In this document: positions 916-59,033 of the stretch, one piece after another
Numbering within the stretch: position 1 is the first letter of the stretch
Layout of the letters: each line of letters begins with the position of its first letter
Virus record (IMG/VR): IMGVR_UViG_3300028886_001624
Location: 62,001 to 126,000 of that record
DNA length: 64,000 nucleotides
Origin: an uncultured virus (IMG/VR IMGVR_UViG_3300028886_001624)
Taxonomy: Duplodnaviria; Heunggongvirae; Uroviricota; Caudoviricetes
Reading direction: 5' to 3' (one strand)
The notes under the pieces: model-generated
Databases searched by the model: none
Seen by the model: the letters and a program-made list of their open reading frames with translations, nothing else
Told to the model about the DNA's origin: nothing
Program-made: the position numbers and the translations under genes

Positions 916-1126
916 CAAACATTTTTTTCCAAGGTAATAACAATGTTTTTAACAAAACAAGCAACTCTGTGCGTAACTACCGATAAGAGCGGTGACCTTG
1001 GAAAAATTTTGGCTCGATAGTTTAAGGGTATATAACTGTTAACACATATTCTAATAAAATCTAATAAAAATATTATTGATTTTATGACAAAAATCGTTAT
1101 TTTTTAAATGTTAATGATATTTATAT

Positions 1127-22166: not shown

Positions 22167-22310
22167 ACTACCCATCAACTAAAGATTTGTGGAATTTTTT
22201 GGTGTTTTTTATTAAAAAACATTAAAATAATGTGGGATATCTTGTGTATCTCACATTTTTTTTATACTTTTGCAAAAAATGATGGTACAAACACAGAAAG
22301 AATAATCACT

Positions 22311-23702
22311 ATGCAGATATTCAAAGAAGAAAGAATTATCAAGTTAATTGAGTTCATAAAAGATGAAATTAAGGATACTGCCTTCAGAAACCATGTATTC
22401 GTGGTCGGTGGCAGCATCAGAGATTCATTATTGGGACTTAAGGTAAAGGATATTGACTTGGTGGTGGACATCCCAAACGGAGGTGTATTACTATCGACGT
22501 TCTTGACAGCCAAGAACAACTGCTATAGAACCGGAAAGAACCCCGTCATTTACAACAAATACGGTACCGCAAAGTTCCAATTTCTCAACCACAACGAATT
22601 CAACGACATTGAAATAGAGTGTGTACAAACTAGGAAGGAACAATACCACAATGAGAGCCGGAACCCAAAAGTCGTATTCGGCGAACTTGAAGAAGATGCC
22701 AAGAGAAGGGACTTTACGGTCAACTCAATTTACTACAACATTAGCAGTGATAGGATAGAAGACCCGAATAACGGGTTGGATGATATTCTAAATGCTGTCA
22801 TCAAGACTCCGTCAAACCCAAGAATAATCTTCATGGAAGACCCGCTCAGAATTCTGAGGGCGGTGAGGTTTTCTTGTAAATTGGGTTGGGGTATTGAAAA
22901 GGATACTTGGTTGGGCATGATTGAAAATGCCCATAGGATAGATATCATATCCCAAGAAAGAATAACCGATGAGATAACCAAGATTTTGACATCACACAAG
23001 CCTAGTGTCGGGATAAGGAAGATGCTAGGGTGCGGATTGCTACATAGGGTATTGCCGGACATATACGACCTAATTGGCGTATCTGAGTGCGGCAAACTGT
23101 CTCTGTTTGACCATACAATGTCTGTGTTGGATGTCGTAAACCCGTGCATAGAGCACCGTTTAGCAGCCCTTTTCCATGATGTGGGCAAAGTCGTTGTCAA
23201 TGGGGTTAATTCAAAACACGTTGATGTCCCCTCTTTCAGCAGTGATATTGCCTCCCATGACTTGTTTATGATGAAATATCCGAATTCCGTAATAGATACG
23301 GTTGAAAAGGCAATCAAGTATCACATGGCCTTTTCCAATTACGGGGAATATGAAATCCCAAGGGATAAGATACTCCGGAAATTCATTCATCTAGTAGGTG
23401 ATTCGATTGCACCGACATTCGACCTTATGAATGCAAACAACGCATTCTGCGGGCGAAACAAGAAGAAGACCCAAGTCATGAACATACTGAACCGGATGGA
23501 AGAGTTGGAAAACATAGAAAATATGCAGAATGTTAAACTTCCGGTTTCCGGAAAGGATATTATGGAGAAATTCAATCTGAAACAGTCTCCGCTGATTGGT
23601 ACCCTCTTGAATGAGATAAGAGAGGCTTATTTTGAACGTCCGGACATTACAAAGGAAGAGTGCTTTGAATTGGTAGACAAAATCTTAAATAAAGTTATCT
23701 GA
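22311..23702 (+). CDS. cca: CCA-adding tRNA nucleotidyltransferase with HD domain
   Basis: VVGGSIRD, KDIDLV, DAKRRDFTVN, EDPLRILRAVRF, ISQERI, ALFHDVGK. Confidence 0.93.
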   Translation: MQIFKEERIIKLIEFIKDEIKDTAFRNHVFVVGGSIRDSLLGLKVKDIDLVVDIPNGGVLLSTFLTAKNNCYRTGKNPVIYNKYGTAKFQFLNHNEFNDIEIECVQTRKEQYHNESRNPKVVFGELEEDAKRRDFTVNSIYYNISSDRIEDPNNGLDDILNAVIKTPSNPRIIFMEDPLRILRAVRFSCKLGWGIEKDTWLGMIENAHRIDIISQERITDEITKILTSHKPSVGIRKMLGCGLLHRVLPDIYDLIGVSECGKLSLFDHTMSVLDVVNPCIEHRLAALFHDVGKVVVNGVNSKHVDVPSFSSDIASHDLFMMKYPNSVIDTVEKAIKYHMAFSNYGEYEIPRDKILRKFIHLVGDSIAPTFDLMNANNAFCGRNKKKTQVMNILNRMEELENIENMQNVKLPVSGKDIMEKFNLKQSPLIGTLLNEIREAYFERPDITKEECFELVDKILNKVI

Positions 23703-56000: not shown

Positions 56001-57829
56001 CAGAACTTTACACCCTCACAGACCATTTAGGTGGGTTTGCACAGCCTATCGGTGAGGTGGCAGCATTTCAGAAGCAGTATTTCACAATTGATATTTAATG
56101 GCATATGTTTACTCTATTCACATTACTTTTAATCATTTATTGGTTATCCATATCGATAATTGAAGACGGTTTTGAATACACTTGCAAGGAGTATCTTAAA
56201 GGGTTAATTATGATGCTATTGTTTGCTATGGCCGTTGATGGGTTCTTCATAGTAATATCACATCTGTTATAATCATGGAAAAGAAAGCATTTTATAATAA
56301 GTTGTCCGGCACTCGCTATGAGATAGTGGATAGCGCATGGATAGACAAAGATACATTCGTCATTGTCTTTCAAGATATGAAAGACATAGATGGTGACACG
56401 TTCCATTTCGAGGCTGAATACCATAAGGACGAACAAAAGGTGACATTCTGCTTGGTATATGAGAATCAAGTGTTAAGCGGAGAGGACTGCATCCCAACCT
56501 CAATAAAGAGAGAGATTGAGGAATATATGCTAAAGCAATTAGATGTGGTCAAGGGGATGCTTATAAAGCATAATATTACGCTTGAATTGTCGCTTGACAT
56601 TGACGAAAACTTGACAATGGATGAATTAAGGGCATATCTTAATACCTTGGACATAGATGTGAAGGGTTATGGTGACAAAGTGAATTGCATAGGAGTTAAA
56701 CGAATAAATTAGGCGGATTTTATGATGATTGAAGCAAAAATAATTCTGTTTTTGTTTCGGTAATCCAAAAAGTTTGGGTACTTTTGCATTGTCAAACAAT
56801 TTAAAAACAAATAAAGATTATGGAATACAAAGACATTGCACCCGTTGTTAAACATGATTATGCAAAGCCATATAGGGTCAAGTACGCAAACGGAAAGACA
56901 GCCATTGTGCGCCTTTGGCTTGCATCTAACGGATTGGTAGCCAAGTTGGCTAAAGGGAGAAAGGTACACGGCTATGTGCTTGGTTATTACGACTACAAGG
57001 ATTGGGTGTCGTTGAAGGCAGTGGAGAAGAAGCCGACAAGCACGTTCACCCTCATGAAGAAAAGGGCAACAGATGCCTTGAAGTATCTCACACAGAGCGG
57101 AATGTGGCCTTCAATTAAGAAGGAGATAGAACATTTCCTTTCCGATGATGCCATCATACAAGCCGTAGCCGATGCCATTGACAAGGATTCATACGAGTCT
57201 TTCTACAAGGAATGCTACGAGAACGGGAAATTCCCATGGTGTCACACCACACAAGTGTTCGAATCCTTTGCCGCCAAAAGATGTTGGCAGTCTATCCCAT
57301 ATCAAAGGTGGGAAAGGGAAAGGATGAACCAAAGAATAAGTAATGCCATTGAGGATAGGCAAGACTTCAGTTACCGTTGGACTAACGGCTATGACAATAC
57401 AATAGAGATTAGCGGTGGCGAAGAACTAAGGGGATGGCTATCATGTGAATACAGAGGCTGCGGAAACGGACATTACTACCTTCTATTTGATGCTACCCAT
57501 GCCATCTTCTACGAGGACGATTGAAAAGTAATTAAAAATAGATTAATAATAAAAAGATGAACAAAGATATTGAAAGAATAAAGGGTATTGTGCTCTCGAA
57601 AGGGAGCACAGACCCAAAAGGCGGCAGGGTGCTCAAACTAGAGGCCGGAAAGGTTACGGTACTATCGAGGGCCAAAGAAAGACTTTATCCCGTGGCCCTG
57701 CGCGTATACCAAGAAGAATTGCAAGTGGTTTTCGTTAATAAGAGAAAGAGATTCTTTTCCTATCCATTGCTATCACTGCAAAGTGATGCTCCTAAGTTAT
57801 TCGAAAAGGTCATATCCGTCTTTTGTTAA
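50019..57829 (+). other. Array of small hypothetical island genes (50019, 50817, 51377, 51654, 52192, 52753, ~53262, ~53513, 53699, 53953, 54319, 54639, 55011, 55784, 56275, 56820, 57557)
   Basis: ORFs after promoter copies. 52753-53118 and 54639-54974 are paralogs (YDGGxHPEYxSN); 51654 has IYCHWDG. Confidence 0.7.
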
Positions 57830-57987
57830 CAAATGTTAAAATGTTGGCAAATATTTTGGATTGTCAAATATTTTATATATCTTTGCAATGTCTTGAAAAG
57901 GACGATAAAACATAATTAAAGAACTCGGTTGCGGTGGACAACACGCCAAACTATAGTTAAGAGTTAGGGCATTTAAAAACCACCTTT

Positions 57988-58112
57988 TGGGAAGTACTAG
58001 AGGAGAACCATCTTGCAATCCTGCAAGGGTGGATGTAGACAAATAGGTATCAAGTTTGTGCTTGATATGTCGCCTACGGGCGGCTTCGGCGGTGCAAATC
58101 CGTCCTTCCCAA
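57988..58112 (+). ncRNA. Expanded tRNA-like RNA, copy 1
   Basis: Acceptor TGGGAAG/CTTCCCA-A, U8A9, variable arm GTCGCC-TACG-GGCGGC, T-arm GGCGG-TGCAAAT-CCGTC. Confidence 0.8.
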
Positions 58113-58169
58113 CAAATTTCTTGCGGTGGACAAGGACGGAATTAATCCGAAAAAAAACCACCTATCTTT

Positions 58170-58285
58170 TGGAAGATACCGGAGGAGAACTATCCGCAAG
58201 GGTAGATGTAGACAAACGGGTATCAAGTATGTGCTTGATATGTCGCTTACGAGCGGCTTCGGCGGTGCAAATCCGCCTCTTCCAA
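58170..58285 (+). ncRNA. Expanded tRNA-like RNA, copy 2
   Basis: Acceptor TGGAAGA/TCTTCCA-A; same architecture as copy 1 with compensatory changes. Confidence 0.8.
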
Positions 58286-59033
58286 CACTTTTGTTTGACG
58301 CGATGAGGGTTCGGCTTTTCTAAATCTTTACGGCCGAACCCTCTATTTTTATTCAACCCCAATTGAAACATATATCACACCATAAAAAAGAAGTGTGTCA
58401 TAAAACACACTTCTTTCGCTTTCTGACGGCCTTTAACCATTGGGGCAATACTTTCCCGGTCACTTAATTCCAAGCCTCTTACATAACGCTTCAAGCATTC
58501 TATCCTTGATGCTTGCCACCTTCCAATTCTTTTCGTCCTTTCCGATTAAGATGTCTTTGACAATGAAGGACTTTAATTCTTGTTTTGTTTTAAACCCGCA
58601 TTTGCGGCAGAACGAAGCACATTCCTCAATGAACTTGTTAAACTTCTCGTCATCCATACACAGAAAAATATTTTTGGTTACACAATGCAAATATATCAAA
58701 AATATTTCGGTATTCCAAACTTTTGGGGTACTTTTGTGATGTCAAATAAAATAATAACGATTATGGCAATAGATATTTCGAAACTACCATTGACTCAGTT
58801 AAGGAGTTTAAGGAATTGCTGCTATAACTTGGTTATACGCAATCTAAGACAATGTCCGGAGGGCGATGAGAAATATAGGAAGATAAGAATACTCTTGTCA
58901 CAATTCTATCTTGGTATCGTTGCACAGAATGAGTTGCTTCAAGAATGTGTCGAACTCGGATGGATTAATGAAAAAAACATCACCCATTTCTTGTGATTAA
59001 AGAATATTTTATATATCTTTGCATTGTGACAAT

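What the first reader, a model, noticed from the sequence alone, without database searches (positions are those of the whole stretch)
57929..58288. Tandem pair of novel expanded tRNA-like RNAs with built-in covariation
Two copies follow a dedicated promoter (about 57880). Both have a 7-bp acceptor, U8A9, a 3-bp D-stem, a 7-bp TATCAAG/CTTGATA stem with a 6-nt loop (TWTGTG) instead of a 5-bp/7-nt anticodon arm, a long variable arm and a Tyr-like TTCGGCGG-TGCAAAT-CCG 3' end. The D-loop is expanded to GAGGAGAA-[hairpin]-ATGTAGACAAA. Differences between copies are largely compensatory (acceptor, CTA/TAG versus CCG/CGG, CCATC/GGTGG versus CTATC/GGTAG, GCC/GGC versus GCT/AGC), while the unpaired GAGGAGAA and ATGTAGAC are identical. 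This points to selection on a functional structure, not decay. Inference: a tRNA scaffold displaying a protein-binding or catalytic module, for example an anticodon-nuclease decoy.
Basis: partly seen in the sequence, partly recalled or inferred. Interest (0 to 1): 0.82.

Follow-up and report, generated by a model that had tools for sequence, protein, structure and literature searches.

The report
Phage tyrosine-tRNA look-alike RNA family
A giant cattle-gut phage carries two expressed copies of a previously uncatalogued RNA that is built from a tyrosine tRNA but has an extra module in one loop and a rebuilt, non-reading anticodon arm, and such RNAs are found only in related phages that also bring their own tyrosine-charging enzyme.

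Summary
Window 57988-58112 and 58170-58285 are two tRNA-shaped units under one promoter (TATCTTTG, 57878-57885) and one terminator (58305-58352). Every one of 32 pairs forms in both copies, and 7 pairs differ by compensatory changes.

ARAGORN and Rfam 15 do not recognise them. They belong to a large family: 126 distinct full-length members from virus and metagenome contigs, 99.3% of cells paired, 25 of 32 pairs covarying.

The family derives from a phage tRNA-Tyr. GAGAA-[5-6 bp, mostly GNRA-capped hairpin]-AUG was inserted in the D-loop. In most members the anticodon arm became 7 bp plus a 6-nt loop, which keeps only G34-U35.

Units sit in tRNA operons in arrays of up to five. Cattle-gut metatranscriptome contigs cover the locus but not its flanks.

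Arrays occur in 7 of 7 (near-)complete relatives that encode a TyrRS. They occur in 0 of 5 relatives that lack one. TyrRS lies beside a Ro60-fold protein.

Best reading (about 0.4): processed, non-decoding tRNA-Tyr mimics acting in the phage-host conflict over tRNA-Tyr. The function is untested.

The scan had met near-identical DNA in another genome, for a different feature.

The parts
57878..57885 (+). Bacteroidota-type -7 promoter box TATCTTTG; RNA contigs of three studies begin at 57900
   Evidence: Pattern search finds the same octamer before tRNA-Pro (59014-59021) and before many ORFs. Contigs from runs X7, X16 and X17 all start at 57900. This is a weak hint of a 5' end, because contigs cannot show ends.
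57928..57984 (+). Leader element 1: GUUGC-GGUGG-ACAAC, a 37-nt linker ending in AAAAA, then CCACC. Candidate H-type pseudoknot (hairpin loop GGUGG pairs with CCACC)
   Evidence: Repeats D4 and D6. 29 distinct variants stand directly before units in relatives. The outer stem pair is G:C, C:G or U:A. The loop-tail pairing is GGUGG/CCACC, with one variant each of GGUGU/ACACC and GGUGA/UCACC.
57988..58112 (+). Unit 1: tRNA-Tyr-derived RNA. Acceptor 57988-57994/58105-58111; D stem 57997-57999/58044-58046; D-loop insert with 25-nt hairpin 58008-58032; 7 bp + UUUGUG arm 58048-58067; variable arm; T arm; A73 at 58112
   Evidence: R1 scores 165.6 bits and R2 scores 120.2 bits.
58120..58162 (+). Leader element 2: CUUGC-GGUGG-ACAAG, a 23-nt linker holding a small hairpin and an A run, then CCACC
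58170..58285 (+). Unit 2: same architecture. D-loop hairpin CUAUCC-GCAA-GGGUAG (58190-58205); arm 7 bp + UAUGUG (58221-58240); A73 at 58285
   Evidence: R1 scores 153.6 bits and R2 scores 128.8 bits. Contigs of RNA run X19 cover 58166-58220.
58305..58352 (+). Intrinsic-terminator-like hairpin: 11-bp perfect stem, 17-nt loop, followed by UAUUUUUAUU
   Evidence: Inverted repeat I4. The consensus terminator scan misses it because it allows loops of 3-8 nt only.

Best explanation
The two units are members of an uncatalogued family of phage RNAs derived from a phage tRNA-Tyr.

Shown:
- They are transcribed from their own promoter.
- They keep the full tRNA scaffold and the same 5' and 3' gene context as the phage's real tRNAs.
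- They carry a conserved D-loop module.
- Their anticodon arm cannot read a codon in the normal way.
- They keep the features that mark tRNA-Tyr: A73, the U1-A72 and G2-C71 pairs, the long variable arm, and G34-U35 held in register counted from the 3' side.
- They are multi-copy.
- They occur only in phages that also encode a TyrRS.

Inferred:
- They are cut out by RNase P and a 3' nuclease, and CCA-tailed by the phage CCA-adding enzyme (window 22230-23702).
- As tRNA-Tyr look-alikes they are bound, and perhaps charged, by the phage TyrRS.
- They are also bound by whatever host factor attacks tRNA-Tyr.
- They thereby buffer or divert that attack without entering translation.
- The D-loop module serves as a handle for a partner not yet identified.
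For: Structure and family:
- 100% pairing and 7 compensatory pairs between the two copies.
- 42 distinct relatives: 99.3% of 1325 cells paired, 25 of 32 pairs change on both sides, 0 of 500 shuffles reach this, slid controls pair 32-47%.
- 126 distinct full-length members in all.

Origin:
- The model hits the ordinary phage tRNA-Tyr(GUA) L071:1501-1589 at 42 bits.
- Its D-loop GAGUAGACAAA and T loop UGCAAAU equal the family's once GAGAA-hairpin-AUG is taken out.

Kept features:
- U8A9 in 125 of 126 members.
- A73 followed by C in 122 of the 122 members the pattern matched.
- T loop UGCAAAU in 114 of 122.
- The variable arm covaries.
- In the three arm sequences that one search printed as examples (class A, class B, canonical), 9 nt follow the U of G-U in each, by my hand count.

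tRNA-like processing context: units follow a tRNA-Met gene and each other at 5-nt gaps, inside tRNA/tmRNA clusters.

Expression: RNA-library contigs of 4 runs cover 57900-58231 and none covers the flanking ORFs at 57000-57846.

Co-occurrence with TyrRS:
- G002, G003, G006, G007, G012, G013 and G014 have both arrays and TyrRS.
- G017-G021 have neither.
- In G003, TyrRS is the only aaRS among the 121 ORFs of 200 aa or more (120, the largest). The same genome has RtcB, two RNA ligases, RlaP, Thg1-like and CCA-adding enzymes.

Known biology:
- Septu and retron-Eco7 cut tRNA-Tyr in the variable loop.
- Phage T6 escapes by tandem amplification of its tRNA-Tyr gene.
Against: - No experiment bears on this RNA; binding, charging and protection are all inferred.
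- In the retron-Eco7 system, changing the anticodon of a phage tRNA-Tyr abolished rescue (PMC11555353, figure legend). There the tRNA works as a supplement, not as a decoy.
- The host and its defences are unknown, and no Septu or other tRNA-Tyr nuclease was looked for.
- The decoy idea does not explain why the D-loop flanks and the UUCGUG loop are so strictly conserved.
- Co-occurrence with TyrRS rests on related phages and no tree-aware test was made.
- The window's own record (45% complete) holds no TyrRS in what is available.
- The metatranscriptome data are contigs. They cannot show ends, CCA tails or strand, and DNA carry-over is not excluded.
Confidence: 0.4

Rival explanations
1. Dedicated partners of the phage TyrRS with a role other than defence. 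They would be tyrosylated but kept off the ribosome, so they could carry activated tyrosine for a non-ribosomal reaction, or bind TyrRS to regulate it.
For: - Same co-occurrence with TyrRS.
- TyrRS identity-type features are kept: A73, the first two acceptor pairs, the long variable arm and G34-U35. That these are identity elements of bacterial tRNA-Tyr is recalled knowledge.
- The TyrRS of G002, G006 and G007 have HLGH and KFGKS motifs. The G003 enzyme is a full-length tyrS equivalog with the C-terminal domain.
- High copy number fits a stoichiometric substrate.
Against: - No aminoacyl-tRNA-dependent transferase was seen among the 121 ORFs of 200 aa or more of G003; shorter ORFs were not scanned.
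- The G003 TyrRS has GVHH in place of HIGH, so its activity is uncertain.
- This reading does not explain the D-loop module.
Confidence: 0.2
2. Y-RNA-like partners of the phage's Ro60-fold protein. The tRNA-shaped body plus the D-loop module would form an RNP with the Ro-like ring, which is encoded next to TyrRS and near RtcB, for surveillance or repair of damaged tRNA-Tyr.
For: - The 558-aa DUF2828/DUF7788 protein folds at pLDDT 91. Its 12 best PDB matches are all Ro60/TROVE structures (1yvr E 4.4e-9, TM 0.54/0.57), including a phage Ro60.
- A profile of the family hits Ro60 first in PDB sequences (E 0.0017).
- It is 80-83% identical in G002, G006 and G007.
- TyrRS lies within 4 kb of it in 20 of 80 loci.
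- No Rfam RNA and no T-arm-like motif lie around it in G003, so its RNA partner is unassigned.
- Bacterial Y RNAs are tRNA mimics (PMC4201824, passages read).
- Some jumbo phages carry TROVE proteins 'with a tRNA-like partner' (PMC7824862, passage read).
Against: - Five complete or near-complete phages have the Ro-like protein but no arrays, so the protein does not need this RNA.
- The units are not next to the Ro-like gene: 137 kb and 241-242 kb versus 278-279.5 kb in G003.
- The topology differs from YrlA, and no GNCGAA motif is present.
- Pfam TROVE itself does not match (0 of 5 records).
Confidence: 0.15
3. Working tRNAs. The D-loop hairpin is tolerated by the ribosome, and the odd anticodon arms read Tyr or other codons in an unusual way.
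For: - 2 of 126 members have a canonical CUGUAAA loop on a 5-bp stem, and a diverged G012 unit does too.
- 17 members have a 7-nt loop YGGUAAR with GUA in place.
- The insert lies in the variable alpha region of the D-loop (position inferred from the alignment).
Against: - About 106 of 126 members, including both window copies, have 7 bp plus a 6-nt loop.
- Class B members lack U33.
- The complete relatives checked for it carry an ordinary tRNA-Tyr as well (G002, G006 and G007 from hits of tRNA-Tyr size at 44-49 bits; G003 by ARAGORN).
- tRNA finders reject the units.
Confidence: 0.08
4. Intron-containing tRNA-Tyr genes whose D-loop insert is spliced out.
For: - Removing GAGAA-hairpin-AUG restores exactly the D-loop of the ordinary phage tRNA-Tyr.
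- The phages encode RtcB.
- The same phages hold other tRNA genes with inserts of about 50 nt.
Against: - No EndA-type endonuclease in 5 of 5 records, while the control found it in 4 archaea.
- RNA contigs keep the insert, and no joint skipping it was listed.
- Splicing would still leave a non-canonical anticodon arm in most members.
- The insert flanks are more conserved than an intron would need.
Confidence: 0.04
5. Decaying tRNA-Tyr pseudogenes left by duplication.
For: Tandem duplication of phage tRNA genes is common, and the units fail tRNA finders.
Against: - Near-perfect pairing with compensatory changes across 42 and 126 distinct members.
- Invariant unpaired segments.
- Own promoter and terminator.
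- RNA-level cover.
Confidence: 0.02

Closest known systems
Phage-encoded tRNA-Tyr used against Septu / retron-Eco7 (T5 tRNA-Tyr; amplified T6 tRNA-Tyr locus; PMC13096335, PMC11555353)
   Same: A phage-borne tRNA-Tyr scaffold with a long variable arm, strong own promoter, tandem multi-copy arrangement in a T4-like phage, and a setting of tRNA repair genes.
   Different: Those are ordinary decoding tRNAs whose anticodon is needed for rescue. The window's units have a D-loop insert and a non-decoding arm. The arrays are fixed, diverged paralogues, not fresh amplifications. No defence system is known for this host.
Bacterial and phage Y RNAs of the YrlA type (PMC4201824)
   Same: A non-coding tRNA mimic with T arm, D arm and acceptor-like stem, in a genome that has a Ro60-fold protein and RtcB. 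Some YrlA are cut by RNase P and CCA-tailed.
   Different: In YrlA the ends form the Ro-binding helix and the 'acceptor' is a closed stem-loop. YrlA has a GNCGAA motif and lies beside rsr. Here the ends are at the acceptor stem, the extra module is in the D-loop, and the genes lie in tRNA operons far from the Ro-like gene.
Bacterial class II tRNA-Tyr
   Same: 7-bp acceptor, U8, 3-bp D stem, long variable arm, T arm, A73.
   Different: A D-loop enlarged by 22-42 nt; a 7 bp/6 nt arm in place of 5 bp/7 nt; T loop UGCAAAU (G at 55); not found by ARAGORN or RF00005.
RtT RNA of the E. coli tyrT operon (Rfam RF00391)
   Same: Repeated RNA units tied to a tRNA-Tyr operon and containing tRNA-Tyr-derived sequence. 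The lead came from earlier finding e1-1155614; the description is recalled.
   Different: No match to RF00391 in a scan of all Rfam families at E up to 10. RtT units hold only a partial tRNA, whereas these are complete tRNA-shaped molecules.
Tyrosine-accepting tRNA-like structure of brome mosaic virus (recalled, no call)
   Same: A viral RNA that mimics tRNA-Tyr without decoding.
   Different: That structure is the 3' end of an RNA virus genome of plants, with a quite different fold. There is no sequence or structural test here.

Membership tests
Canonical tRNA (tRNA-Tyr) | Cloverleaf with 7-bp acceptor, D, anticodon and T arms, supported by covariation | tested here: met
   32 pairs. 100% paired in the two copies. 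99.3% paired over 42 distinct relatives.
Canonical tRNA (tRNA-Tyr) | Recognised by tRNA gene models (ARAGORN; Rfam RF00005 at 29 bits or more) | tested here: not met
   Not called by ARAGORN. No RF00005 hit at gathering score or at E up to 10. Relatives are not called either.
Canonical tRNA (tRNA-Tyr) | 5-bp anticodon stem with 7-nt loop, U33 and an anticodon | tested here: not met
   The window copies have 7 bp + UUUGUG or UAUGUG. Only 2 of 126 relatives have CUGUAAA.
Canonical tRNA (tRNA-Tyr) | Aminoacylation with tyrosine and use on the ribosome | not testable with these tools
   Needs charging and translation assays.
YrlA / bacterial Y RNA | 5' and 3' ends form the Ro60-binding helix; order T arm, closed acceptor-like stem-loop, D arm; GNCGAA motif | tested here: not met
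   The ends lie at the acceptor stem, the arm order is that of a tRNA, and no CGAA occurs in either unit. Features taken from PMC4201824 passages.
YrlA / bacterial Y RNA | Encoded next to the Ro60 gene | tested here: not met
   In G003 the units lie at 137 kb and 241-242 kb, and the Ro-like gene at 277.9-279.5 kb. No Ro-like gene is found in the held part of G000.
YrlA / bacterial Y RNA | Bound by Ro60 | not testable with these tools
   Needs pull-down or EMSA with the Ro-like protein.
Intron-containing tRNA | A splicing endonuclease is available | tested here: not met
   PF01974 found in 0 of 5 phage records; the control found it in 4 archaea. Bacterial hosts lack EndA (established knowledge).
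Intron-containing tRNA | Removing the insert gives a canonical tRNA | tested here: not met
   The D-loop would be restored, but the anticodon arm of both window units stays non-canonical.
Intron-containing tRNA | A spliced form is present in RNA | tested here: inconclusive
   RNA contigs keep the insert and no joint across it is listed. Contigs show presence, not absence.
RtT RNA (RF00391) | Match to the family covariance model | tested here: not met
   No hit in the scan of 4227 families at E up to 10 over 57600-58600.
Counter-defence phage tRNA-Tyr (T5/T6 type) | Tandem multi-copy phage tRNA-Tyr-scaffold genes with a long variable arm | tested here: met
   Arrays of 2-5 units. The variable arm is kept and covaries.
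Counter-defence phage tRNA-Tyr (T5/T6 type) | Functional Tyr anticodon (needed for rescue in the tested system) | tested here: not met
   for the family. The requirement is read in a figure legend of PMC11555353.
Counter-defence phage tRNA-Tyr (T5/T6 type) | Protects the phage from a tRNA-Tyr nuclease | not testable with these tools
   Needs plating and cleavage assays.

The most novel reading that the evidence does not exclude
The units are the RNA subunits of a phage tRNA-Tyr care module. In this reading a tyrosylatable, non-decoding tRNA-Tyr body carries a D-loop docking module for the Ro60-fold protein that is encoded beside the phage TyrRS and near RtcB. They would then be a new, independently evolved class of Y-RNA-like molecules, built directly from a tRNA and tied to a single amino-acid system.
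Probability: 0.15. Interest if true: 0.9.

Novelty: new variant of a known kind. Interest (0 to 1): 0.78.

Why it matters
tRNA-Tyr has recently emerged as a target of bacterial immunity (Septu, retron-Eco7), and phage tRNA-Tyr genes as counter-measures.

This finding adds a natural, widespread, strongly conserved family in which a phage tRNA-Tyr has been turned into a non-decoding RNA. The RNA carries an added module, is kept in several diverged copies, and is tied to a phage TyrRS and a Ro60-like protein.

It offers a concrete, testable system for two questions: how viruses use tRNA mimics, and what phage Ro60-like proteins bind.

It also shows that standard tRNA and Rfam scans miss a whole class of tRNA-derived genes in giant phages.

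Tried and rejected
- Two first pattern scans of viral contigs were too strict and gave only chance or coding matches. One search gave 44 stretches, none with further motifs. One search gave 11 stretches, all unrelated.
- blastn against GenBank phages found no match.
- The genome-contig scan gave 2 matches, in Rhodopirellula and Anaerolineae MAGs. Neither was confirmed by model R2, so I take them as chance.
- The csRNA catalogue of PMC10690425: its tRNA-Tyr-overlapping DNAVirus_1423 is a 66-nt soil motif, not this family. Three of its supplementary files could not be searched, so the family may still be listed there.
- The Ro-like protein gave nothing by several routes: single-sequence AlphaFold model useless (pLDDT 38), phmmer against PDB nothing, Pfam TROVE 0 of 5, and a literature search for DUF2828 nothing relevant.
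- A Y RNA next to the Ro-like gene was looked for and not found.
- R2 hits beside distant Ro-like genes turned out to be ordinary tRNA-Tyr genes within tRNA clusters.
- The sigma-70 promoter scan and the consensus terminator scan are uninformative here.
- Parts of the locus without RNA-contig cover (58232-58385) are not evidence of anything.
- RNA runs X16-X20 held small shares only. The habitat statement rests on 20 runs from 11 studies recorded as bovine or gut metagenomes.
- A preQ1-type riboswitch was considered for the leader because of its A-rich pseudoknot shape. No Rfam match at E up to 10.
- Complex prediction was not used, because it takes no RNA.
Full report
**What is at the locus.**
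Window 57700-58500 holds one transcription unit:
- a Bacteroidota-type promoter box TATCTTTG (57878-57885; the same octamer precedes tRNA-Pro and many ORFs);
- two units of the same build (57988-58112 and 58170-58285), each preceded by a small leader element (57928-57984 and 58120-58162);
- a strong hairpin followed by a U run (58305-58352; inverted repeat I4).

The repeat finder reports a 100-nt direct repeat at 87% identity, plus the exact leader repeats TTGCGGTGGACAA and AAAAACCACCT. ARAGORN finds four ordinary tRNAs in the window but not these units. Rfam 15 gives nothing at gathering score and only noise at E up to 10.

**The structure is real.**
I drew the tRNA-like structure on the alignment of the two units: 7-bp acceptor, 3-bp D stem, D-loop hairpin, 7-bp arm, 6-bp variable arm and 5-bp T arm.
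- All 64 cells pair. 7 of 32 pairs differ on both sides; 2 of 500 shuffles reach this; sliding the partners drops pairing to 39-48%.
- MFE folding recovers the same arms, with z = -2.58 and -3.42.

**Where the window comes from.**
- The window is part of a 135.8-kb virus record estimated 45% complete.
- Its genes are mostly unknown. Recognisable ones include a DnaB-like helicase, a sigma factor, a transposase and a tRNA nucleotidyltransferase.
- Relatives found through a neighbouring protein are phage records of 237-412 kb.
- One relative, G003, has T4-like capsid, portal and terminase genes.
- Runs holding the stretch are recorded as bovine or gut metagenomes: 20 runs from 11 studies.

**A large family.**
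- A covariance model of the two copies (R1) found homologues in 4 of 5 related records.
- A pattern made from the conserved D-loop flanks then found 30 loci in viral contigs, with up to five units per locus.
- R1 gave 54 hits, 42 of them distinct.
- R2, built from these, gave 102 hits in 74 sources. The 74 sources were the two MAG loci and 72 of the 80 metagenome loci with DNA.
- Together this makes 126 distinct full-length members.
- On the 42 distinct sequences, 99.3% of 1325 cells pair and 25 of 32 pairs change on both sides. No shuffle of 500 reaches any measure, and slid controls pair 32-47%.

Two caveats apply. These alignments are fitted to the model. The members were picked by a pattern that fixes the D-loop flanks, so the conservation of those flanks (GAGGAGAA 116 of 125; AUGUAGACAAA 114 of 125) is biased upward.

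Features not fixed by the pattern are also nearly invariant:
- U8A9 in 125 of 126;
- T loop UGCAAAU in 114 of 122;
- A73 followed by C in 122 of 122;
- CUUC before the T arm in 120 of 126.

**Origin from tRNA-Tyr.**
- The model also hits, at 42-49 bits, an ordinary 84-nt phage tRNA-Tyr(GUA) in G002, and hits of the same size and score class occur in G006 and G007.
- That tRNA has the same unusual T loop (UGCAAAU), the same U1-A72 and G2-C71 pairs and A73, and the D-loop GAGUAGACAAA.
- The family's D-loop is this sequence with GAGAA-[hairpin]-AUG inserted after G15.
- The hairpin always closes with C-G (124 of 125), has 5-6 bp in 110 of 125, and a GNRA loop in 98 of 125. Its stem covaries.

**Anticodon-arm classes.**
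- About 106 of 126 members have 7 bp plus a 6-nt loop. UUCGUG is exact in 99; the window has UUUGUG and UAUGUG.
- 17 have a 7-nt loop YGGUAAR, which keeps GUA but not U33.
- One has CCGUAAA.
- Two have the canonical CUGUAAA.

In the three arm sequences that one search printed as examples (one of each class), I counted by hand 9 nt after the U of G-U in each. The main class therefore reads as a 3-nt insertion 5' of G34 plus new 32-38 and 33-37 pairs.

**Genomic setting.**
- In relatives the units follow a tRNA-Met gene and each other at 5-nt gaps, like genes of a tRNA operon, or are separated by conserved spacers of about 190 nt.
- The arrays lie in tRNA/tmRNA clusters.
- Many units are directly preceded by the leader element. 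It has 29 distinct variants. The outer stem pair is G:C, C:G or U:A. The loop GGUGG pairs with CCACC, with one variant each of GGUGU/ACACC and GGUGA/UCACC.
- This supports a small H-type pseudoknot with an A-rich linker. Its role is unknown.

**Expression.**
- Contigs of four RNA-library runs from four studies lie on 57900-58231. None lies on the ORFs at 57000-57846.
- Three contigs, from three studies, start at 57900. That is 15 nt after the promoter box.
- All contigs that cross the D-loop keep the insert, and no joint across it was listed.
- Contigs cannot show ends, strand or tails, and DNA carry-over cannot be excluded. This is good but not final evidence of transcription, and a weak hint of the start site.

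**Link to TyrRS.**
- All four complete relatives with units encode a TyrRS. So do two fragments.
- The G003 enzyme is a tyrS equivalog (331 bits) with the C-terminal domain.
- G003 was fetched whole. Among its 121 ORFs of 200 aa or more (120, the largest), TyrRS is the only aminoacyl-tRNA synthetase.
- G003 also has RtcB, two RNA-ligase-family proteins, RlaP, a Thg1-like enzyme and a CCA-adding enzyme.
- It has 36 tRNAs and a tmRNA, including an ordinary tRNA-Tyr.
- TyrRS lies next to a 558-aa DUF2828/DUF7788 protein that is 80-83% identical in G002, G006 and G007.
- With an alignment of 63 relatives this protein folds at pLDDT 91. Its 12 best PDB matches are all Ro60/TROVE structures. The family profile also ranks Ro60 first among PDB sequences. 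Pfam TROVE does not match.
- Among 80 viral loci with a relative of this protein, TyrRS lies within 4 kb in 20.
- Three more distant (near-)complete phages with the pair (G012, G013, G014) all carry tandem, diverged units at 66-78 bits. These have a shorter D-loop insert or none, GGUAA-type or canonical loops, and an ordinary T loop.
- Five (near-)complete phages with the Ro-like protein but no TyrRS have no units.
- In total, arrays occur in 7 of 7 TyrRS-positive and 0 of 5 TyrRS-negative (near-)complete genomes.
- The genomes are related, and I made no tree-aware test.

**Interpretation.**
Shown:
- a conserved, expressed, multi-copy, tRNA-Tyr-derived RNA family;
- in most members it cannot decode;
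- it keeps what marks tRNA-Tyr;
- it travels with a phage TyrRS.

Inferred:
- maturation by RNase P, a 3' nuclease and the CCA-adding enzyme;
- recognition by TyrRS.

The most likely role, at about 0.4, is as tRNA-Tyr mimics in the conflict over tRNA-Tyr. Septu and retron-Eco7 cut tRNA-Tyr in the variable loop. T6 escapes by tandem amplification of its tRNA-Tyr gene, and the authors consider a decoy or supplement role (PMC13096335, abstract and passages). Against a pure decoy, rescue from retron-Eco7 was lost when the anticodon of the phage tRNA-Tyr was changed (PMC11555353, figure legend).

Rival readings:
- a non-defence role with TyrRS (0.2);
- a Y-RNA-like partnership with the Ro-like protein (0.15). 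It fits the unassigned RNA partner and the literature on tRNA-like Y RNAs (PMC4201824, passages; PMC7824862, passage). It is weakened by Ro-like phages without units;
- true decoding (0.08);
- a spliced insert (0.04; no EndA);
- decay (0.02).

**Novelty.**
- There is no match in Rfam 15.
- Literature searches gave no description: tRNA-like, phage, D-loop, tRNA-Tyr, decoy; huge phages; tyrosyl-tRNA synthetase, jumbo phage, tRNA-like; tRNA, D-loop, insertion, bacteriophage.
- The viral csRNA catalogue PMC10690425 could be checked only in part.
- tRNA mimics are a known kind of RNA. This one differs in its origin, its D-loop module, its array organisation and its tie to one synthetase.

Noticed in passing
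window 1011-1045 and 2928-2984 (transposase ORF 1659-2858 between them): A tRNA gene with a perfect 7-bp acceptor and a perfect T arm appears split by about 1.9 kb that holds a transposase (phrog_506). ARAGORN with introns reads it as tRNA-Val(AAC) with a 1882-nt insert. It could be an IS insertion or an intron-borne gene.
   Followed up: partly
G000:C1:58102-58232 (outside the window, 3.8 kb before its start); L068:18-140, L077:2604-2729, L099:430-550, L078:222-345, L075:3211-3331, L082:35-169: These phages also hold tRNA-model hits of 120-135 nt with an insert of about 50 nt near the anticodon region. This is a second kind of enlarged tRNA gene.
   Followed up: no
L090:1601-1787, L099 and L084 spacers; L075:2020-2212 and L078 spacer; downstream of arrays in L075, L077, L080, L084, L099, L101: Three further conserved non-coding stretches of 150-200 nt lie between and after units in relatives. 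One begins GUAGGCUUCGGCUGAAAA. None matches Rfam. They are absent from the window's locus.
   Followed up: no
G003:C1:238172-238263 (L119:4172-4263, minus strand): A 92-nt tRNA with anticodon CUA, a long variable arm and C at position 33. It is a possible amber suppressor in a complete relative.
   Followed up: no
L105:1195-2475 (G003 TyrRS) versus L102-L104: The G003 TyrRS has GVHH where G002, G006 and G007 have HLGH. KFGKT/S and the tyrosine-pocket motifs are kept.
   Followed up: partly
L071:1501-1589; L193:603-689; tRNA genes upstream of arrays: Several ordinary tRNAs of these phages have G in place of U at T-loop position 55 (UGCRAMU) and A in place of G18. This is an unusual elbow shared with the unit family.
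   Followed up: no
L308, L319, L331, L305 (distant phages): In distant jumbo phages the Ro60-like gene lies inside dense tRNA gene clusters of 8-10 tRNAs within 9.6 kb.
   Followed up: partly
window 58427-58634: A separate RNA-library contig (run X7) covers this stretch downstream of the terminator. It overlaps short ORFs at 58440-58739 and 58580-58996 that match no family.
   Followed up: no
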